Source: a virus (lineage: Duplodnaviria > Heunggongvirae > Uroviricota > Caudoviricetes). Taken from it: a stretch of DNA of 41,166 nucleotides. The notes beneath the pieces were generated by a model. That model saw only the letters and a program-made list of their open reading frames with translations, was not told the origin of the DNA and did not search any database. Made by a program: the position numbers and the translations under genes. This document shows positions 7,010 through 15,033 of the stretch, one piece after another (the stretch's first letter is position 1; each line of letters opens with the position of its first letter). The DNA lies in IMG/VR virus record IMGVR_UViG_3300028886_000031, positions 280,485-321,650 of that record; one strand, 5' to 3'.

Positions 7010-7096
7010 TCGGAGGTGAGCCGAATAGGTAAGGCAACGGGCTGTTAACCCGTCTGGGAAACCTAACTGCGGGATCGTGACCCGCCCTCCGAGCCA
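7010..7096 (+). tRNA. tRNA-Asn (GTT) with long variable arm
   Basis: Acceptor TCGGAGG/CCTCCGA, G73, CCA; anticodon arm ACGGG-CTGTTAA-CCCGT; 15-nt variable region; T-loop ATCGTGA. Confidence 0.85.
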
Positions 7097-7804: not shown

Positions 7805-7808
7805 ATAC

Positions 7809-7866
7809 GGGCCGATAGTGATAGCGGTAGCACTTCTGCTTTGTACGCAGAGAGTAGGGTTCGAAT
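7809..7866 (+). pseudogene. 5' fragment of an Ala-like tRNA (anticodon reads TGT), broken at the T-loop
   Basis: GGGCCGA acceptor 5' strand, D-arm, TCTGC-TTTGTAC-GCAGA anticodon arm, GGTTCGAAT; no 3' T-stem, acceptor strand or CCA follows. Confidence 0.75.
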
Positions 7867-7886
7867 TTACCTTCTTGTGTCATTTT

Positions 7887-7964
7887 TGTAGATTGACAAC
7901 ATGATGTCTAACATGGTAGGAAAAACATCTAACCGTCTTTTCCTATGTCAATCTACACTTTTTT
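7887..7964 (+). terminator. Branched hairpin plus T6 upstream of the HNH gene
   Basis: GTAGATTGACA/TGTCAATCTAC outer stem, TAGGAAAA/TTTTCCTA inner stem, then T-run. Confidence 0.6.
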
Positions 7965-7967
7965 ACT

Positions 7968-7981
7968 CGAATAAAATTAAA
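7968..7981 (+). promoter_or_regulatory. Candidate late promoter
   Basis: CGAATAAAATTAAA, identical to 28427-28440; starts 46 nt upstream of the HNH ATG. Confidence 0.55.
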
Positions 7982-8013
7982 TTAGACAATTTTTATTAAA
8001 GGTTAGAATTTTT

Positions 8014-8913
8014 ATGGATAATAATTCAATTCATTATTGTAAGAATTGTGGTGAAAAATTTTATAATGATAAAAGTGATTTTTGCAGTAAACATTGTGCA
8101 TGTGGATATAATCCTATTATAACTAAAATGTGTCCATATTGTAAACAAGAATTTACAATCAAAAAGAAAAAATTTGCTGCACATGTCAAATATTGTACAC
8201 AAAATCCAAAAAGAATAGAAATAGATAAAAATTTAAAGAAAACTGGCGCAGAAACAATTGATAAAAAATATGGATTATTTAAAGAATTTATTGTAAAATG
8301 CCATGTATGTGGAACGAAATTTACTGTAATAGAAAGAGAGAAATTATTTCCACAAAAAGAACGATATTATTGTAGTGACGAATGTGGAAAAAAATATGCC
8401 AATTCTTGCATGAATCATGATACATTCCAAAAAATATCAAATACACTAAGATCTAGATATAATAAAAAGCCAAGAATATGTCCAGTTTGTAAAAAAGAAT
8501 TTACAGGCAATAGAAAATGTTGTTCTGATAAATGTAGAAAGTTTTATATTCATGAATCTTATGATAGAAGTCATCTTATTAAAAGAAGTCAATTAGAATT
8601 ATATCGATCAAAATGTGATTTTCATTTTTCTTTAAGAGATTATCCAGACGAATTTAATTTCGATTTAATTAAACAATATGGATGGTATAAAGCAAAAAAT
8701 CATGGAGATAATTTGAATGGCGTATCTCGTGATCATATGTATAGTATTAAAGAAGGTTTTGTGAATAATGTTGATCCAAAAATTATGTCACATCCAGCAA
8801 ATTGTAAATTATTAAGGCATTCAGATAATGTTCGTAAAAATTCAAAAAGTAGTATCACATTACAACAATTACTAGAAAGAATAGATGCTTGGGATAAAAA
8901 ATATAATAAATGA
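8014..8913 (+). CDS. Free-standing HNH homing endonuclease with multiple CxxC zinc-binding repeats
   Basis: Several CxxC pairs; C-terminal SRDH...HPANC...SDNVRK fits an HNH core; location inside a tRNA cluster. Confidence 0.75.
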   Translation: MDNNSIHYCKNCGEKFYNDKSDFCSKHCACGYNPIITKMCPYCKQEFTIKKKKFAAHVKYCTQNPKRIEIDKNLKKTGAETIDKKYGLFKEFIVKCHVCGTKFTVIEREKLFPQKERYYCSDECGKKYANSCMNHDTFQKISNTLRSRYNKKPRICPVCKKEFTGNRKCCSDKCRKFYIHESYDRSHLIKRSQLELYRSKCDFHFSLRDYPDEFNFDLIKQYGWYKAKNHGDNLNGVSRDHMYSIKEGFVNNVDPKIMSHPANCKLLRHSDNVRKNSKSSITLQQLLERIDAWDKKYNK

Positions 8914-8923
8914 TAAATATTTT

Positions 8924-9014
8924 GGGCCATTAACTCAGTCCGTTAGAGTGCTTCCTTTGCACGGAAGAAGCGTCATTGACGTTCACGTGGGTTAAAATCC
9001 CACATGGTCCACCA
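8924..9014 (+). tRNA. tRNA-Ala (TGC) with 19-nt variable arm
   Basis: GGGCCAT/ATGGTCC acceptor with G3-U70, A73, CCA; CTTCC-TTTGCAC-GGAAG; variable stem AGCGTC/GACGTT; T-loop TTAAAAT. Confidence 0.85.
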
Positions 9015-9016
9015 TA

Positions 9017-9090
9017 GCATCTGTAACTCAATGGCAGAGTGTCAGCCTTCCAAGCTGATTACGAGGGTTCGATTCCCTTCAGATGCTCCA
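9017..9090 (+). tRNA. tRNA-Gly (TCC)
   Basis: Canonical cloverleaf GCATCTG/CAGATGC, U73, CCA; TCAGC-CTTCCAA-GCTGA. Confidence 0.95.
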
Positions 9091-9136
9091 TTATTAAATA
9101 GATTTCCTATAATTTTTTTAGAAAAAAATTAAAGAT

Positions 9137-9211
9137 TGCGGGATAGTGCATCGGTTGCATACTGGGCTCATAACCCGGAGATGGTTGGTTCGACTCCAAC
9201 TCCCGCTACCA
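9137..9211 (+). tRNA. Initiator tRNA-fMet (CAT)
   Basis: 1:72 mismatch (U/U), three consecutive G-C pairs closing the anticodon stem (CTGGG/CCCGG), A73, CCA. Confidence 0.9.
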
Positions 9212-9215
9212 ATTT

Positions 9216-9293
9216 AAACATGGGTGACAGACCATTATATTTCCTTTGAACCTTCTGTGTGCTTGTTTATTAAATGGACCTCCCATGTTTTTT
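9216..9293 (+). other. Large-loop hairpin with T-run between two tRNA genes
   Basis: AAACATGGG/CCCATGTTT outer stem, partial CCATT/AATGG inner stem, T-run to 9293. Confidence 0.5.
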
Positions 9294-9295
9294 AT

Positions 9296-9371
9296 AGCAG
9301 GATAGTGGTAGTGTCTCCATACAAGTTGAAACACATTTGTGATGTTGGTTAAAATCCAACTCCTGCTACCA
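9296..9371 (+). tRNA. Atypical tRNA-like RNA (initiator-tRNA-like body, 8-nt anticodon loop TGAAACAC; possibly Phe-GAA or non-decoding)
   Basis: Perfect acceptor AGCAGGA/TCCTGCT, A73, CCA; D-stem GTGG/CCAT; T-arm GTTGG-TTAAAAT-CCAAC; anticodon stem CAAGT/ATTTG. Confidence 0.7.
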
Positions 9372-9374
9372 ATT

Positions 9375-9409
9375 GCCATAGGATAATTATATCCTATGGC
9401 TTATTTTTT
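9375..9409 (+). terminator. Intrinsic terminator ending the tRNA cluster
   Basis: Perfect 11-bp stem GCCATAGGATA/TATCCTATGGC followed by TTATTTTTT. Confidence 0.85.
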
Positions 9410-9444
9410 CTAAAAAATTAAAATTTAGAACATAATAATGTTAT

Positions 9445-11772
9445 ATGAAACTAAGCAACAGTTTTCGCGGATTAAGAAGACATAAAAATTATGTAGAAAA
9501 TTTAGGGAATAAGAGAGAGAAAGTTTTACAGAAATTAGATAAGAATTATCCATCTAAAATCATTAAAAGTGATATTAAAAAAGTTACAAAAGAGAAAAAA
9601 AGACAAAAAAATACTTTTAAAATCATCAAAAAAACAACAGAAGATAAATCAGAACATAAAAGTATCCCAAGTTTTAAAGAAAAACAAATTCCATATATTA
9701 GTTTTATAATAGCTTTTTATAACAACGCACCATATATAGAAAGATGTATCAATTCCATTCTTAATCAAACAGTTAAAAATATAGAAATCATACTTGTTAA
9801 TGATGGATCTACAGATAATGTAGAACCAATTCTGGAAACATATAGAGAAAAATATTCAAACATTAAAGTTATTAACCAAGAGAATAAAGGTGTTTCTGCT
9901 GCCAGAAATATCGGTATTAAAAATTCTAATGGCTTATACCTAGCATTTATCGATGGGGATGATTACATTACTCCTGATATGTCTGAATATTTATTAGACA
10001 GATGTTTAAAATATAATTTAGATGCTTGTTATTTCGATTTTAAATTCATAGATGTTTCTACAAATAAAATCCTAAAAGCTGCTTATCACTTTAAAAATTT
10101 TTTATCGGAATTTAAATTTGAAAAAGTAATTTCCACATATGACATAAAACTAGATATTTTATGTAGTAGTATGGCTATGGGAATATATAAAAGAAAAATT
10201 TTTATAGACAATAACATCACATTCAATGAAGAAGTTGAATTTGGCGAAGATTTTTTAGTAAAATTTGACTATTTTTATTTATATAAAAGAATAATGTTTG
10301 TAAATAAAGAGTTCTATATTTATTGCAGAAATAGAAATGATAGTGCTACAACTACAATTAACAGGCATATAGATAGAATTATTGTATTTTTAAATAATAT
10401 TATAAAAATGTATTTAAGACATCTAATCAATGATTCTAGAAATAATAGTCAATATATCAATCTTATTTTACGTGAAATAACACATTACGTCAGAATACTT
10501 AAATGTCAAAAAACTGATGAATGGTGTCAAAACAATCTTTATTTAATAGATCCAGATCTAATTCTAAATAATGATATTAATCCGCTATATATAGATAGAT
10601 TAAAGAATATTATAGATCTTAAAAGATTTAATAATCTATATGATAAGATATCTTTTTATAGATCCAAATTAAAAAAGTCATATTATATTATTACTGGTCA
10701 ATTAAATTCTACAGAGAATGAATCTATAGATTCTTGGTTATTTTTTAAATACTTAAGACAAAATAATATAGATTCCATATATGTCTGTTGGAAAAATCAT
10801 AAATCGTATGCCGAATATAAGAAATTATATCCAGAATATGTTATCGGAATGAATGGTAATTGTGTTACAGATGAGGAGTTCTTTAGTTCTAGATTATTTC
10901 CATATATTGTCAGGTCAAAATTTTTAATTCAAGAAAATTCAGCTTTAAATTCTAATATAGAAAAATATATTTATAACTGTAAAGATTTTTGTAGAGTATT
11001 CTTGGGTCATGGAATAACTGTAAGTAATGATATTAATTATTTAAAATTTTTAGATATTTATAATGTATCATCCGATAATGAAAAGAAAATTGTAAAAGAA
11101 GCCGTTACACATACAAAATTGAATAACAGTAACTTTATTGTCGCTGGTTTACCAAGATATGATTACTTAAAAGATGAGTATGATAGTCAAAGAAAATACG
11201 CATTCATAATGTTCACATGGAGATATACATTTACAGATTCACTTAAAATTCAGAGCAGTGATTATTTAAAGAATATACTTAATCTTGTAAACGAAGATAA
11301 TATTAATAAGTTAAAATCTAATGGAATTACTCCTATATTATGTATACATCATCATATATTAAATAAACTTAAACTCAAATTAAACTTAGATAACGTTATT
11401 ATACCAGAATCGACACAAATCTCTAGTTATATTAGAAAATCATTTGTATGTGTTACAGATTACTCAAGTGTTAACTATGATTTTAGATTCTTAAATAAAC
11501 CTGTGATTTTTTGGACTCCAGATTTGAATAGTTCTAAATTATCTAACGTAGATCTTCAAAAACAGTCCATTTGTATAAAAAGATTAAGTATTTTTAACGA
11601 TACTGTTACAGATATAGATTCTGTAATCCATAAAATCATATATTACTCAAAGAATCCGTATTTATCAAAAGATAAGATTATTTTGAATAATTCTTTCTTT
11701 AAATATAGAAAAAATATTTCAGAACATTTATATAATGGATTAGAGAGAATGTATTCTCAATTAAAAAATTAG
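9445..11772 (+). CDS. GT2 glycosyltransferase fused to a CDP-glycerol glycerophosphotransferase (TagF-like) domain
   Basis: GT2: SFIIAFYN, EIILVNDGSTD, GVSAARNIG, FIDGDD. TagF-like: FLGHGI, GLPRYD, FTWR, TDYSSVNYDF..LNKPVIF. Confidence 0.85.
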   Translation: MKLSNSFRGLRRHKNYVENLGNKREKVLQKLDKNYPSKIIKSDIKKVTKEKKRQKNTFKIIKKTTEDKSEHKSIPSFKEKQIPYISFIIAFYNNAPYIERCINSILNQTVKNIEIILVNDGSTDNVEPILETYREKYSNIKVINQENKGVSAARNIGIKNSNGLYLAFIDGDDYITPDMSEYLLDRCLKYNLDACYFDFKFIDVSTNKILKAAYHFKNFLSEFKFEKVISTYDIKLDILCSSMAMGIYKRKIFIDNNITFNEEVEFGEDFLVKFDYFYLYKRIMFVNKEFYIYCRNRNDSATTTINRHIDRIIVFLNNIIKMYLRHLINDSRNNSQYINLILREITHYVRILKCQKTDEWCQNNLYLIDPDLILNNDINPLYIDRLKNIIDLKRFNNLYDKISFYRSKLKKSYYIITGQLNSTENESIDSWLFFKYLRQNNIDSIYVCWKNHKSYAEYKKLYPEYVIGMNGNCVTDEEFFSSRLFPYIVRSKFLIQENSALNSNIEKYIYNCKDFCRVFLGHGITVSNDINYLKFLDIYNVSSDNEKKIVKEAVTHTKLNNSNFIVAGLPRYDYLKDEYDSQRKYAFIMFTWRYTFTDSLKIQSSDYLKNILNLVNEDNINKLKSNGITPILCIHHHILNKLKLKLNLDNVIIPESTQISSYIRKSFVCVTDYSSVNYDFRFLNKPVIFWTPDLNSSKLSNVDLQKQSICIKRLSIFNDTVTDIDSVIHKIIYYSKNPYLSKDKIILNNSFFKYRKNISEHLYNGLERMYSQLKN

Positions 11773-11773
11773 T

Positions 11774-12433
11774 CTATAGAATATCTGCAACATCTAAAAT
11801 TTGATGTTTTTTATTTCTTACCCAGCTATGATATTCATAATGATCTATATAGAGTGGATATTTATTAAATGATTCTTTAAGTTGACATTCTAAAAATAAA
11901 TTACGGAATGAAAGAAATCTCTCTAACTGTTCATCCCTAAATAAATAAATTATTTTTTTCATTCCTTTTTCATTATGTTCCGTAAAATGACATTTACTCG
12001 AACCACAAAAGAATGTAGCAATATAACTGCTTATATGTTTATTATTTTTAAAACATAAATATTTTGATTTAAATGATTTATTTTTTAACAATTCATCATC
12101 GAATGGTCTAACTGGAAATGTATCACAATCTAAATAGATTCCACCATACTTATTTAATAATTTACGTCTATATGTATCTGATAAATGAACAGTTATGAAC
12201 TTATTATTTAAAGGCATAAATGGATTGTATCTTTTTCCAGATTTCAATTCCTTAATAGTTTCTTTTAAAACTTCATCATTACAGTTTTCCCAGTTTTCTA
12301 ATTGCTCTGTTGTATAATTAATTAAATCTACTTTAAAGTCAGAATTAATTTTCTTAAATGAATTAACAGCAAAATCTACATAATTTGGTTTATTATTTCC
12401 AAACCACAAAAAAAATATCTGTTTTGGTATCAT
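11774..12433 (-). CDS. GT32 family glycosyltransferase (DxD sugar-binding type)
   Basis: MIPKQIFFLWFG; SDTYR..LL.KYGGIYLDCDT; C-terminal YIDH-x5-W. Confidence 0.85.
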   Translation of the reverse strand: MIPKQIFFLWFGNNKPNYVDFAVNSFKKINSDFKVDLINYTTEQLENWENCNDEVLKETIKELKSGKRYNPFMPLNNKFITVHLSDTYRRKLLNKYGGIYLDCDTFPVRPFDDELLKNKSFKSKYLCFKNNKHISSYIATFFCGSSKCHFTEHNEKGMKKIIYLFRDEQLERFLSFRNLFLECQLKESFNKYPLYIDHYEYHSWVRNKKHQILDVADIL

Positions 12434-12562
12434 CTCTGTTAAACATTCTTTTTTATTTTAATTCTTTAAATTAATACATCAAATCTATATATATAAATTA
12501 TCATTGTATTATTATGGTTAATAATACAATTATTCTAAAACCCTAACAGAAAGGAAAATTAC

Positions 12563-13255
12563 ATGTTGAATGATGAAGAAAAAATGCAAATTGCCGTGGA
12601 AGTACTTCCATTGGCAATTCAAGCACTACATAACGCTAAACGGTTTTTGCGTTGCGAATTAAATGGAACATGGTGGAAACTCCCAGATAATATTATACAA
12701 GCAGTTCTTACAGATTGTTGCATTGTGTTAGAAATGCTGTATGGATTAGGATTGTTTCCAATTGGAGGTAAAGAAGAATTCATTCACATAAATGTGGATG
12801 AAAAAGAAAAAATATTTGAAAAATTCAACTGGATTAAATGTCAGCAATCCGAAAAACTAAATGAGATGGCTAAGTATGAAATCGCAGAGAAATTTAAAGA
12901 TTACAAAAAGGATTTCGAAACATGGGGTCAGAAAAAGATTGAAGAGGAATGTCTTAAGTTCAAAACTAGGGTGATTGATAAATTTCAATCTTTATTGGAT
13001 AAATTCCAAAAAAGCTTAAAATTTATTAATGAAATAGCTAGACTGAGTGATCATTTTAAAATGTTATGTCATCGGCTCGACAAATTATATAAGACATATC
13101 CTTCAAATGAAACAGTAAAGCAATTATATTATAGAACTCTTCCGGAGATTCTTCAAATATATAAGGAAAATCAAATCACTTCCACAAATCTCAATTTGTT
13201 TGATGAAATAAAAAAGTCTTGCGAAAAAGCCAAGCAAGACATAGAATCACTCTGA
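12563..13255 (+). CDS. Hypothetical helical protein
   Basis: GAAAGGA SD; 230 aa; has its own terminator; sits between glycan genes. Confidence 0.8.
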   Translation: MLNDEEKMQIAVEVLPLAIQALHNAKRFLRCELNGTWWKLPDNIIQAVLTDCCIVLEMLYGLGLFPIGGKEEFIHINVDEKEKIFEKFNWIKCQQSEKLNEMAKYEIAEKFKDYKKDFETWGQKKIEEECLKFKTRVIDKFQSLLDKFQKSLKFINEIARLSDHFKMLCHRLDKLYKTYPSNETVKQLYYRTLPEILQIYKENQITSTNLNLFDEIKKSCEKAKQDIESL

Positions 13256-13264
13256 TCCGAAAAC

Positions 13265-13299
13265 TATGGGACTATGTTATATAGCCCCATATGTTTTTT
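13265..13299 (+). terminator. Intrinsic terminator between convergent genes
   Basis: TATGGG-A-CTAT/ATAG-C-CCCATA stem followed by T6. Confidence 0.65.
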
Positions 13300-13320
13300 A
13301 TTTAATTTTTTAATACAGAA

Positions 13321-15033
13321 TTATTGAAAACCATTAAATAGTTTTTTAATGTTGAGCTTGTTTCTTATCTCGTTAAAAAATAAAAATCCTTTTAAAGTAT
13401 TTGTTCTGACATGATTGCATCCTTTCTGTGGTGTAAAATCCTGTCCTATATGAACTTTGTTTTTTGAATTTAACCAGAAATCTGATACTGTAATATCAGA
13501 ATAAGATTTTAATCCATGTCCATAAATACAATTTTCACATCTATCTAATCTATTTTTAAAAACAAAACTATTAAAATACTCAACATTGTAATTTAAAACG
13601 ATGTTATTATCTAATGTAACACGTATTCCATTGACAGTATGATTATATCTAAAATCTATATCTTTTATAGCTCTGTGATATTTATCTTTAATATATTGTA
13701 CAAATTCTTTTAATCTTTGAGGTTTTGAAAAACCACGACATTTAAAATCAACAAGTAAAAGATTGTTATAATCTTTATTTAAATATTTTTTAAGCATATA
13801 AATTTGACATGGTGAACCTATATATAATATATTTATACCATTTTCTAGTTTTTCTTTAATATCTCTAAACTTTGGAAGAAATGAAAAATTATACTTGCTT
13901 TTAGATAAATATCTAAAATAATCATCCATGTTATCTACTGGTTTTATAATAACTTTTGTAAAATCTTCATTATAGGATCCTCCATAGACTATGTAATTAT
14001 TATCTATGGCATATCTAGCTAACTCAGCACAAACACCGCCAGATGTAGACTTGTCATGGATACCTTTATCCTTTGAGTAACATGCGTAATTAAACACACA
14101 AGAATTTTTAAAATAGTTTAACGCCCTCTCTTGTTCATATTTTATATACTTCTGGATTTCATCAAAATTTTCTATAATCCCACCATTATATTTTACATGT
14201 AAAATATCTATAAGATTCATTATTCTATAATTATTCTCAAACTCAATATCTTTTTTCTGGAATATAATAGAAAATGAGAATCCATGGAAACTACAAGTTG
14301 TTATTTTTCGACAATGATGTACAAGCCAAAGAAATTCACCGTATCCAATTTTATTACTTTGTATGGGATTATTAAAATAAAGATGATATGTTCTTGTTCC
14401 ATCTTTATTTGTCGTAAAATGAGATTCATCATTTTTACTTTTACTTCTCATATAGCAAAAATCAAATACTTCATTATCATTTATAAATTCTGGTTTTTTC
14501 TCTATATTTGTCCAGAAATCTATGTCCCATAAGAATACAGGATCTATATTATATGTGCTATTTTCGATTTTGTTATATGATATTGATTCTTTTTCTCTAA
14601 ACGATATATATTTAAAATATTTGGACACGAATTTTTTATATTGTCCTAACTTTAAACAATCACTAGCGGCATATGTTATAAAATGCTTCTCACCACATTT
14701 GACTAATGTTCTTCCACATAAAAAATCTTTAACATGTGACCCCATCCATTTATTGTCTAAATTAAAAACTTGATCACTTCCAATGACATATAAGTCAAAA
14801 CCAGTGAATGTTTTCGTATCATCTAAATTTATAGATATTGGTTTTAAAAATTTAGATTCTAAAGCACTATTTTTTACAGGCACTAGTCTTTTTTTGTATC
14901 CCATTGCATATACGAATGTGTATATATCATCTGTTTTATAAATATTTTTTAGATACTGAACCAGTGCTATATTTTGGAGTCTCTGCCCATAATTATTACC
15001 ATAAGTATAATGGGTGATAACAGCAATTCTCAT
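13321..15033 (-). CDS. Polysaccharide pyruvyltransferase domain fused to an F420-hydrogenase beta-subunit-like (FrhB/FdhB) domain
   Basis: N-half NYGQRLQNIAL, IGSDQVF, SFHG..FSIIF; C-half STSGG, SKY, IGSPCQI, DFKCRG, RCENC, SDIT.SDFW. Confidence 0.8.
   Translation of the reverse strand: MRIAVITHYTYGNNYGQRLQNIALVQYLKNIYKTDDIYTFVYAMGYKKRLVPVKNSALESKFLKPISINLDDTKTFTGFDLYVIGSDQVFNLDNKWMGSHVKDFLCGRTLVKCGEKHFITYAASDCLKLGQYKKFVSKYFKYISFREKESISYNKIENSTYNIDPVFLWDIDFWTNIEKKPEFINDNEVFDFCYMRSKSKNDESHFTTNKDGTRTYHLYFNNPIQSNKIGYGEFLWLVHHCRKITTCSFHGFSFSIIFQKKDIEFENNYRIMNLIDILHVKYNGGIIENFDEIQKYIKYEQERALNYFKNSCVFNYACYSKDKGIHDKSTSGGVCAELARYAIDNNYIVYGGSYNEDFTKVIIKPVDNMDDYFRYLSKSKYNFSFLPKFRDIKEKLENGINILYIGSPCQIYMLKKYLNKDYNNLLLVDFKCRGFSKPQRLKEFVQYIKDKYHRAIKDIDFRYNHTVNGIRVTLDNNIVLNYNVEYFNSFVFKNRLDRCENCIYGHGLKSYSDITVSDFWLNSKNKVHIGQDFTPQKGCNHVRTNTLKGFLFFNEIRNKLNIKKLFNGFQ

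What the first reader, a model, noticed from the sequence alone, without database searches (positions are those of the whole stretch)
9137..9371. Initiator-tRNA paralogue with a rewired 8-nt anticodon loop: possible tRNA decoy or non-decoding RNA
Seen: the RNA at 9296-9371 shares its frame with the tRNA-fMet just upstream (GC(G/A)GGATAGTG...CATAC...GATG...TTGGTT....TCCAACTCC(C/T)GCTACCA). It differs by a paired A1-U72, a wholly different anticodon arm (CAAGT-TGAAACAC-ATTTG, which can zip further to a TG-AAA-CA triloop) and the same GU D-loop/TTAAAAT T-loop elbow as the tRNA-Ala. All four stems pair, CCA is encoded and a perfect terminator follows. Established: enteric VapC toxins cleave initiator tRNA in the anticodon loop; 8-nt loops occur in frameshift suppressors. 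Inference: not random decay. Candidates are a decoy for anti-tRNA defences, a frameshifting or quadruplet tRNA, a degenerate Phe tRNA, or an aminoacyl carrier for non-ribosomal use.
Basis: partly seen in the sequence, partly recalled or inferred. Interest (0 to 1): 0.78.

Follow-up and report, generated by a model that had tools for sequence, protein, structure and literature searches.

The report
Initiator-derived phage tRNA look-alike, 8-base loop
A giant cattle-rumen phage carries, right after its initiator tRNA gene, a well-folded copy of that tRNA whose codon-reading arm has been rebuilt with an abnormal 8-base loop; it is a real gene kept in shape by selection, but only two close strains have it and whether it still reads codons is unresolved.

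Summary
Window 9296-9371 is a 76-nt cloverleaf with encoded CCA, scoring above the Rfam tRNA threshold. It lies 84 nt after an initiator tRNA and 3 nt before a strong terminator.

It is an initiator-family paralogue. The phage fMet gene is by far its closest relative in the 321-kb genome, and every stem difference between them keeps pairing. It is no longer an initiator: 1:72 is paired, the G-C clamp is gone and there is no CAU.

The anticodon loop UGAAACAC has 8 nt. No register gives both U33 and a correctly spaced anticodon.

It is not an assembly error. An independent assembly of a strain about 87-92% identical in the flanks has the same loop, with two structure-neutral transitions.

I found no other homologue in IMG/VR, JGI metagenomes, GTDB genomes or cultured phages.

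- **Best reading (about 0.4):** a non-decoding tRNA-shaped RNA that acts through its tRNA body.
- **Main rival (about 0.28):** an aberrant Phe (GAA) or Val (AAC) decoder. Both amino acids lack a phage tRNA.
- **Effectively excluded:** a decoy for VapC, because the target arm is absent.

Earlier notes of this scan describe other phage tRNA look-alikes beside initiator tRNAs on other DNA. None is this sequence.

The parts
8924..9090 (+). tRNA-Ala(UGC) at 8924-9014 and tRNA-Gly(UCC) at 9017-9090, upstream members of the same-strand tRNA cluster
   Evidence: ARAGORN and Rfam. tRNA-Gly is identical in strain L051. tRNA-Ala is a long-variable-arm allele peculiar to the window strain.
9137..9211 (+). 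Initiator tRNA (fMet): CAU anticodon, U1.U72 mismatch, three G-C pairs next to the anticodon loop, encoded CCA. It is the parent or sister of the candidate.
   Evidence: 53.8 bits. Sequence read. Identical in strain L051.
9212..9295 (+). 84-nt spacer with a long imperfect hairpin (ACAUGGG...CCCAUGU) followed by a U run
   Evidence: the fold is not better than shuffles (z -0.6). There are 4 differences from L051. An RNA-library contig spans 9160-9310, which is a weak hint of a shared transcript.
9296..9371 (+). Candidate tRNA-shaped gene, 76 nt. Acceptor 9296-9302 with 9361-9367. D arm 9305-9320. Anticodon stem 9322-9326 with 9335-9339. T arm 9344-9360. A73 at 9368. CCA at 9369-9371.
   Evidence: Rfam 34.8 bits. 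The cloverleaf is the MFE fold. Paralogy to fMet. Conserved in strain L051 with 9311 G>A (D loop) and 9324 A>G (A-U to G.U) only.
9327..9334 (+). 8-nt anticodon loop UGAAACAC. It holds GAA (Phe) directly after the only U, and AAC (Val) followed by A and C. No register is canonical.
   Evidence: Identical in both strains. As an isolated hairpin, the arm it caps is the weakest among the 16 phage tRNA anticodon arms (+0.4 kcal/mol).
9375..9410 (+). Intrinsic terminator: 11-bp hairpin at 9375-9400 plus a T run
   Evidence: -17.3 kcal/mol, z -5.4, 0 of 200 shuffles as good.

Best explanation
Window 9296-9371 is a real gene for a tRNA-shaped RNA that arose from an initiator tRNA. It has been kept in the tRNA fold by selection, and it has lost everything that makes an initiator: the CAU anticodon, the 1:72 mismatch and the G-C clamp.

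Likely steps:
1. It is transcribed with, or just after, the Ala-Gly-fMet tRNA genes and ends at its own terminator.
2. RNase P cuts its 5' end.
3. Its 3' end is trimmed to the encoded CCA.

Its anticodon arm is a weak A/U-rich stem with an 8-nt loop that fits no decoding register. I therefore think it most likely does not serve as a regular adaptor. Instead it probably acts through its intact upper half (acceptor stem, T arm, elbow, CCA) as a tRNA mimic. It would occupy some tRNA-body-binding protein, such as a host tRNA-directed defence, modification or processing enzyme.

Shown here: the fold, the paralogy, structure-preserving divergence, the loss of initiator marks, and conservation of the odd loop in a second strain.

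Inferred: expression, processing, lack of decoding, and the binding partner.
For: - **A real tRNA-like gene.** Rfam scores it 34.8 bits against a threshold of 29, with genome-wide E 1.9e-6. The MFE fold is the cloverleaf. It lies on the same strand in a tRNA cluster, encodes CCA and has a strong terminator.
- **Initiator descent.**
  - The phage fMet gene is the closest tRNA in the genome.
  - A covariance model built from the candidate picks initiator-type tRNA-Met genes as its only hits in related phages.
  - The T arm is identical to that of cellular initiators.
- **Selection on shape.** In an alignment with three initiators, all 16 acceptor, D and T pairs are standard pairs in both candidate copies. 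Pairs 4:69 and 13:22 changed on both sides relative to the phage fMet gene. The only unpaired cells are the 1:72 mismatches of the true initiators. U19-A56 replaces G19-C56.
- **Against ordinary decoding.**
  - The loop has 8 nt, and its only U is at the first position, so no register gives Y32-U33-NNN-R37-N38.
  - The isolated anticodon hairpin is the weakest of the 16 phage tRNAs.
  - The D loop UAGUGUCU lacks A14, G19 and A21, which the other phage tRNAs have (listing).
  - The phage visibly obtains canonical tRNA alleles by exchange. An aberrant home-made decoder is therefore not its only route to a Phe tRNA.
- **Not an artefact.** An independent assembly from another study (L051/L052) has the same loop.
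Against: - No partner protein or target is identified.
- Conservation is known only from two lineages whose tRNA region is about 97% identical. Selection on the loop itself is therefore not shown. The two substitutions are structure-neutral, but about 30% of random pairs of substitutions would be too.
- The loop contains U-GAA-A and AAC-A-C, and the discriminator is A73. Phe and Val are two of the six amino acids for which the phage has no tRNA, although UUU is its 8th and GUU its 13th most used codon. This fits a decoder.
- Making 1:72 a pair is what an elongator needs for EF-Tu. It is merely neutral for a mimic.
- tRNA-Pro of the same phage also has a weak anticodon stem with one G-C pair.
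Confidence: 0.4

Rival explanations
1. Unconventional decoder. The RNA is an elongator tRNA built on an initiator body. It would be charged by PheRS (U-turn register U-GAA-A) or ValRS (3'-stacked register AAC-A-C) and read UUY or GUU as triplets despite the 8-nt loop. This would fill a gap in the phage's tRNA set. It might also escape anticodon-loop nucleases.
For: - GAA follows the loop's only U and is followed by A. UGAAAC is identical to positions 33-38 of the tRNA-Phe loop of a related phage (G005).
- A73 suits both Phe and Val, and G45 suits Val (established identity sets, from my own knowledge).
- 1:72 is paired and the T stem is unchanged, as elongation needs.
- The phage has tRNAs for 10 of its 12 most used codons but none for Phe. 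UUU stands at 33.6 per 1000.
- The phage already uses an A34 anticodon, in tRNA-Ser(ACU).
- E. coli tRNA-fMet with GAA or GAC anticodons is charged with Phe or Val in vivo (Schulman laboratory, 1990-91; recalled, not checked here).
- Natural 8-nt loops can read triplets, as in yeast mitochondrial tRNA (PMC5009743).
Against: - No register is canonical. The GAA register lacks position 32 and has two extra bases 3' of position 38. The AAC register has A instead of U33.
- It has the weakest anticodon stem in the set.
- The D loop is non-canonical.
- Rebuilding a whole arm is a contrived route when phages readily capture tRNA-Phe genes.
- No conserved homologue supports selection on the anticodon.
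Confidence: 0.28
2. Recently inactivated duplicate. It was once a functional tRNA, and its anticodon loop has been spoiled. It persists only because too little time has passed for it to be deleted.
For: - It is restricted to two close lineages.
- Its divergence between strains (2 of 76) is no lower than that of the adjacent spacers (4 of 84), while tRNA-Gly and fMet show 0 of 149.
- More distant relatives of the flanking GT2-TagF gene have no tRNA cluster there.
Against: - All 21 stem pairs are intact, with two double compensatory changes and one pair-creating change relative to fMet.
- The elbow covaries.
- No single insertion or deletion turns UGAAACAC into a canonical loop, because there is no U at loop position 2 in any one-step ancestor. 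The odd loop is therefore not one fresh lesion.
- Phage genomes purge dead DNA quickly.
Confidence: 0.15
3. +1 frameshifting or quadruplet-reading tRNA. The enlarged loop would read UUUC (anticodon GAAA) or GUUU (AAAC), or would slip +1 after reading a triplet.
For: The 8-nt loop is the hallmark of the classical suppressors sufD, SufB2 and sufJ. The extra bases lie 3' of GAA, as in SufB2 and sufA6 (from my own knowledge). ARAGORN reads the loop as the quadruplet 'aaac'.
Against: - There is no U33 in the suppressor-like layout.
- The genome is densely coded in ordinary ORFs. The 276 non-overlapping ATG-started ORFs of 120 aa or more cover 263 of 321 kb.
- A scan of 78 zero-frame/+1-frame ORF pairs found no pair that needs a shift at UUUC or GUUU. 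Nearly all downstream ORFs have their own start in or near the overlap. This is a weak test.
- Most enlarged-loop tRNAs still pair with three bases (PMC5009743).
Confidence: 0.06
4. Decoy for initiator-tRNA-cutting toxins (VapC type) or other anticodon nucleases.
For: The body and T arm are of initiator type. Phage tRNAs are known to counter tRNA-targeting defences (PMC10264068 and PMC11555353, listed).
Against: VapC-type enzymes recognise and cleave the initiator's anticodon stem-loop (established knowledge). This RNA shares only 7 of 17-18 arm positions with the fMet arm and has neither CAU nor the G-C clamp. The published counter-defence tRNAs work by still decoding, not by acting as sponges.
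Confidence: 0.03
5. Aminoacyl carrier for a non-ribosomal transferase, for example in the surrounding glycan or teichoic-acid-like gene cluster.
For: It sits among glycosyltransferase and TagF-like genes. Non-proteinogenic tRNA-Gly of staphylococci also has an altered D-loop/T-loop elbow (from my own knowledge).
Against: No FemAB (PF02388), Leu/Phe-tRNA-protein transferase (PF03588) or MprF C-terminal (PF09924) domain occurs anywhere in the 321-kb genome, although the control genomes did give matches. The known carrier tRNAs keep a normal 7-nt loop. There is no evident synthetase identity.
Confidence: 0.04

Closest known systems
Bacterial and phage initiator tRNA(fMet), here the gene at window 9137-9211
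   Same: Acceptor stem G2-C71, C3-G70, G5-C68, G6-C67 and A7-U66. An identical T stem GTTGG/CCAAC. D stem G10.U25, U11-A24 and G12-C23. A26, A73 and CCA. The T arm with TTAAAAT occurs in cellular initiators.
   Different: No CAU. 1:72 is an A-U pair instead of a mismatch. There is no run of three G-C pairs in the anticodon stem. The loop has 8 nt. The D loop lacks A14 and G19. The variable loop has 4 nt.
+1 frameshift-suppressor tRNAs with 8-nt anticodon loops (sufD, sufA6/SufB2, sufJ) and engineered quadruplet tRNAs
   Same: One extra nucleotide in the anticodon loop of an otherwise normal tRNA body.
   Different: The suppressors keep U33 and the parental anticodon, and they arise by a single insertion. 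Here U33 is missing from that layout and the whole arm is new. No dependent frameshift site was found.
Saccharomyces cerevisiae mitochondrial tRNA with an 8-nt anticodon loop, and the other natural exceptions listed by Atkins et al. 2016 (PMC5009743: 'tRNAs in a phage', glass-sponge mitochondrial tRNA)
   Same: A natural tRNA gene with a non-7-nt anticodon loop that is not known to mediate frameshifting.
   Different: The yeast tRNA is a proven decoder with a dedicated recognition system and keeps U before the anticodon (from my own knowledge). Nothing is known about charging of the phage RNA.
Non-decoding viral tRNA-like RNAs: phage T4 species 1 and 2 RNAs (rnaC, rnaD), phage T5 RNA1/2, and murine gammaherpesvirus 68 vtRNAs (PMC4810235: only three of eight have a 7-nt anticodon loop)
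   Same: Encoded in or beside a viral tRNA cluster, with tRNA-type ends, presumably processed by the tRNA machinery, and with an anticodon region unfit for decoding.
   Different: The T4 and T5 RNAs are much larger. This RNA has exact tRNA size with all four arms. No sequence relationship was tested or found.
E. coli tRNA-fMet anticodon-switch mutants (GAA, GAC) charged with Phe or Val (Schulman laboratory; recalled, not read here)
   Same: An initiator body carrying a Phe-type or Val-type anticodon and A73.
   Different: The mutants keep a 7-nt loop and the initiator marks, and they act in initiation. This RNA has an 8-nt loop and elongator-type features.

Membership tests
tRNA (Rfam RF00005) | Cloverleaf with four stems that scores above the curated threshold | tested here: met
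   34.8 bits against a gathering score of 29. The MFE fold is the cloverleaf.
tRNA (Rfam RF00005) | 7-nt anticodon loop with Y32, U33 and R37 | tested here: not met
   The loop is UGAAACAC, 8 nt, with its only U at the first position. It is the same in the second strain.
tRNA (Rfam RF00005) | Conserved core and elbow nucleotides (U8, A14, G18, G19, A21, T54, psi55, C56, A58) | tested here: inconclusive
   U8, G18, T54, T55 and A58 are present. A14, G19, A21 and C56 are absent. U19 and A56 could replace G19-C56.
Bacterial initiator tRNA | CAU anticodon | tested here: not met
   There is no CAU in the loop.
Bacterial initiator tRNA | Mismatch at 1:72 | tested here: not met
   A1-U72 is paired in both strains, whereas the three initiators in the alignment are unpaired there.
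Bacterial initiator tRNA | Three consecutive G-C pairs closing the anticodon stem | tested here: not met
   The stem is C-G, A-U, A-U (G.U in L051), G.U, U-A.
Bacterial initiator tRNA | Sequence kinship of the acceptor, D and T arms | tested here: met
tRNA-Phe | G34-A35-A36 in a canonical loop, plus A73 | tested here: inconclusive
   GAA and A73 are present, but GAA is out of register: there is one base, not two, on its 5' side. Charging is not testable here.
+1 frameshift-suppressor or quadruplet tRNA | 8-nt loop with U33 retained and the extra base beside the anticodon | tested here: not met
   The loop has 8 nt, but position 2 of the loop is G.
+1 frameshift-suppressor or quadruplet tRNA | Genes in the same genome that need the shift | tested here: inconclusive
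   The ORF-pair scan found none that stood out. That scan has low power.
Decoy substrate of VapC-type initiator-tRNA nucleases | Presents the initiator anticodon stem-loop that the toxin recognises | tested here: not met
   The arm is unrelated to the fMet arm.
Carrier tRNA for aminoacyl-tRNA-dependent transferases | A cognate Fem, L/F-transferase or MprF-type enzyme encoded alongside | tested here: not met
   No match to PF02388, PF03588 or PF09924 in the genome. Host enzymes were not examined.
Phage tRNA-like stable RNAs (T4 species 1/2 type) | Stable processed RNA made from the tRNA operon | not testable with these tools
   The only RNA evidence is one RNA-library contig over 9160-9310. No RNA run was listed for the gene itself.

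The most novel reading that the evidence does not exclude
The RNA is aminoacylated and used on the ribosome despite its 8-nt loop, and it either reads four bases (UUUC or GUUU) or shifts the frame by +1. It would then be a natural phage-encoded frame-altering tRNA built from an initiator body.
Probability: 0.06. Interest if true: 0.85.

Novelty: new variant of a known kind. Interest (0 to 1): 0.36.

Why it matters
Natural tRNAs with anticodon loops other than 7 nt are very rare (PMC5009743). Phage tRNA-shaped RNAs of unknown function are an old unsolved item (T4 species 1 and 2).

This case offers a clean evolutionary pair: an initiator tRNA and, 84 nt away, its derivative. In the derivative each initiator mark has been removed while the fold was preserved.

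- If it decodes, a tRNA identity would have been rebuilt from an initiator, and an 8-nt loop lacking U33 would work on the ribosome.
- If it does not decode, it adds a minimal, exactly tRNA-sized member to the class of phage tRNA mimics. It would also be a convenient bait for finding the protein such mimics bind.

As it stands it is a lineage-restricted curiosity with no functional data.

Tried and rejected
**Homologue searches that found nothing**
- Exact and degenerate DNA patterns in viral contigs.
- Patterns in metagenome contigs. One search found none. One search found 16 loci, all cellular initiator tRNAs, att-like 3' halves or unrelated tRNAs.
- Patterns in genome contigs.
- blastn against cultured phages.
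- Covariance model R1 on five related IMG/VR records. It hit only their initiator-type tRNA-Met genes, at 28.9 bits.

**Synteny routes**
- The capsid protein and the flanking GT2-TagF protein gave no close IMG/VR relatives.
- GT2-TagF relatives at 56-59% identity have no tRNAs nearby.
- Records behind ENA and Logan loci cannot be searched whole.

**Expression**
- No RNA holder was listed for 9285-9405.
- No silent control stretch could be laid for the RNA run, so the contig over 9160-9310 may come from DNA in the library.

**Other ideas tested**
- Antisense action of the loop: its complement GTGTTTCA is not enriched in the genome (3 and 6 sites against about 6 expected).
- The spacer hairpin folds no better than shuffles.
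- The promoter scan was at background level.
- ARAGORN at a lowered threshold is not evidence, since it makes 165 calls per genome.
- The marine bacterial element downstream of metY (L055) shares the last 31 nt almost exactly. It is absent from E. coli and from GTDB species genomes, its middle part is unrelated, and the match may be parallel change in another initiator copy. I do not count it as a homologue.

Full report
**Setting.** The window is the last 41 kb of a 321,650-bp IMG/VR phage record.
- The genome is 30.8% G+C and has a T4-type major capsid protein.
- The runs that hold it are bovine gut metagenomes.
- ARAGORN finds 15 tRNA genes in the genome. Rfam finds 15 above threshold, among them the candidate.
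I did not test these, beyond reading the sequence of the oversized genes.

**The observation.**
- It has a 7-bp acceptor stem with A1-U72.
- The D stem is GUGG/CCAU, with the 8-nt D loop UAGUGUCU.
- The anticodon stem is CAAGU/AUUUG, with the 8-nt loop UGAAACAC.
- The variable loop has 4 nt.
- The T arm is GUUGG-UUAAAAU-CCAAC.
- It ends in A73 and CCA.
- The cloverleaf is the minimum-energy fold.
- The Rfam tRNA model gives 34.8 bits, above the gathering score of 29, with E 1.9e-6 for the whole genome.
- Default ARAGORN misses it. Its low-threshold call, 'tRNA-?(Phe|Val)(aaac)', comes at a setting that produces 165 calls in this genome and so carries no weight.
- Three bases after the CCA there is an 11-bp hairpin plus a T run.

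The gene at 9137-9211 is an initiator tRNA, with CAU, a U1.U72 mismatch and three G-C pairs next to the loop.

**Is it an artefact or a private error? No.**
- A Logan contig from the probable source sample is identical (L008).
- An ENA assembly and a Logan contig from a different study (L051, L052) carry the same gene with two transitions. These are 9311 G>A in the D loop and 9324 A>G, which turns A-U into G.U in the anticodon stem. The 8-nt loop is unchanged.
- The same differences appear when contigs of run X5 are laid on the window.
- That strain is only 87-92% identical to the window in the flanking genes, so it is a separate lineage.
- Its tRNA region as a whole is about 97% identical, spacers included. 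The candidate (2 differences in 76 nt) is no better conserved than the spacer (4 in 84), while tRNA-Gly and fMet are identical. These data therefore show persistence, not selection on the loop.

**Kinship.** Among the phage's own tRNAs, the fMet gene is the clear nearest relative (global alignment score 23 against 5 or less).
- Outside the anticodon arm the two share 19 of 26 positions in the 5' part and 27 of 32 in the 3' part.
- A covariance model built from the two candidate copies (R1) finds only the initiator-type tRNA-Met genes in five related phage records.
- A degenerate search of JGI metagenomes for the T arm and 3' acceptor strand returned mostly cellular initiator tRNAs with the identical T arm GTTGG-TTAAAAT-CCAAC. 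Some of them have U1.U72 or A1-U72.
- In an alignment of the two candidate copies with three initiators, all 16 acceptor, D and T pairs are standard pairs in the candidate. Pairs 4:69 (G-C to A-U) and 13:22 (C-G to G-C) changed on both sides relative to the phage fMet gene. The only unpaired cells are the 1:72 mismatches of the true initiators.
- G19-C56 of the elbow is replaced by U19-A56.

Drift in a dead gene would not give five stem changes with no broken pair. The RNA has therefore been under selection for the tRNA fold since it split from the initiator.

**What it has lost.** CAU, the 1:72 mismatch and the three G-C pairs are all gone, so it is not an initiator.
- The anticodon arm shares no more with the fMet arm than chance would give.
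- As an isolated hairpin the arm is the least stable among the phage's tRNAs (+0.4 kcal/mol). tRNA-Pro is close at -0.5.
- No one-step insertion or deletion turns UGAAACAC into a canonical Y-U-NNN-R-N loop, because the only U is the first loop base.
- Two partial registers exist. In U-GAA-A-C the Phe anticodon sits in a U-turn context, with position 32 missing and two extra bases on the 3' side. In AAC-A-C the Val anticodon has a normal 3' stack but A in place of U33.

**For a decoder.**
- The phage has tRNAs for 10 of its 12 most used codons and lacks only Asp (GAU) and Phe (UUU, 33.6 per 1000).
- Val (GUU, 24.2 per 1000) is also unserved.
- A73 fits both Phe and Val.
- A paired 1:72 is what elongation requires.
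- From memory, initiator tRNAs given GAA or GAC anticodons are charged with Phe or Val in E. coli.

**Against a decoder.**
- The loop geometry fits no register.
- The anticodon stem is weak.
- The D loop lacks A14, G19 and A21.
- This phage lineage demonstrably swaps in whole tRNA alleles (see below), which is an easier route to a Phe tRNA.

I put the decoder reading at about 0.28 and a frameshift or quadruplet version at about 0.06. A crude scan of 78 zero-frame/+1-frame ORF pairs showed no gene that needs a shift, and the genome is densely coded in ordinary frames.

**For a non-decoding mimic.** The upper half of the molecule is intact and under structural selection, while the decoding end is unconstrained in form. 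Viral tRNA-shaped RNAs that do not decode are known, for example T4 species 1 and 2 and the MHV-68 vtRNAs (PMC4810235). Earlier notes of this scan describe several phage tRNA look-alikes placed next to initiator tRNA genes on other DNA. These notes are unverified and I use them only as a lead. I commit to this reading at about 0.4, knowing that the partner is unknown.

- A VapC-type decoy would have to present the initiator anticodon stem-loop, which this RNA lacks.
- A carrier role finds no FemAB, L/F-transferase or MprF-type domain in the genome.

An antisense role for the loop is not supported either.

**Expression.** One metatranscriptome run holds exact contigs over 8936-9112 and 9160-9310. 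The second spans the fMet 3' half, the spacer and the first 15 nt of the candidate. Without a silent control this may be DNA in the library.

**Comparison and verdict.** The closest known entities are the initiator tRNA (its parent, but it fails all three initiator-defining tests), enlarged-loop suppressor tRNAs (same loop size, different layout), and non-decoding viral tRNA-like RNAs (same logic, different size). It is a new variant of a known kind. It is real and shaped by selection, but it is lineage-restricted and functionally unresolved. Interest is moderate to low (0.36).

Noticed in passing
window 7808-9014 (compare L051:3495-3569): The canonical 75-nt tRNA-Ala of the sister strain survives in the window only as a remnant of about 60 nt at 7808-7870, with its anticodon changed from TGC to TGT. 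An insert of about 1.14 kb follows. It carries a 299-aa ORF (8014-8913; phrog_23051 C-terminal domain, no Pfam family above its curated cut-off (only a sub-threshold FYVE match)) and a replacement tRNA-Ala(UGC) at 8924-9014. The replacement has G3:U70, a hairpin-forming long variable arm and a TTAAAAT T loop. Only the last 9 nt are shared with the old gene. It looks like a mobile cassette that targets a tRNA gene and brings its own substitute.
   Followed up: partly
window 7010-7096 (compare L051:2708-2782): tRNA-Asn(GUU) is an 87-nt allele with a long variable arm and the T loop ATCGTGA (A54 and U58 swapped). The sister strain has a canonical 75-nt tRNA-Asn at the same site, with the same acceptor ends. 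An earlier scan note describes such ATCGT T loops in other phages.
   Followed up: partly
G000:C1:244519-244608 (outside the window): The phage's second tRNA-Ser has the anticodon ACU, with A at position 34 (loop CUACUAA). This is unusual for bacteria-type tRNAs.
   Followed up: no
L055:5534-5620 (also L063, L067): In marine bacterial contigs, an 87-nt element lies between the initiator tRNA gene (metY, U1.U72) and ORFs whose order and sizes (151, 497, 889, 134, 313 aa) match rimP-nusA-infB-rbfA-truB. It has an acceptor-like stem, the T arm GUUGG-UUAAAAU-CCAGC and ACCA. Its last 31 nt match the candidate at 30 positions and its middle part is unrelated. It is absent from E. coli and from GTDB species genomes. 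It may be another initiator-derived tRNA-like element or an att-type partial duplication.
   Followed up: partly
window 9445-15033: The tRNA cluster is embedded in glycan-synthesis genes: a GT2-TagF fusion (775 aa), a GT32-like gene, a pyruvyltransferase-FrhB fusion and a GT11 gene. The TagF-type domain hints at a Gram-positive host.
   Followed up: no
G000:C1:249411-249872 (outside the window): The three oversized tRNA-like genes noted earlier share a D arm of the form GTGTAAYGGTAGCAC. The first contains GGAAACAC, which resembles the candidate's loop UGAAACAC. With one 7-mer this is probably chance.
   Followed up: no
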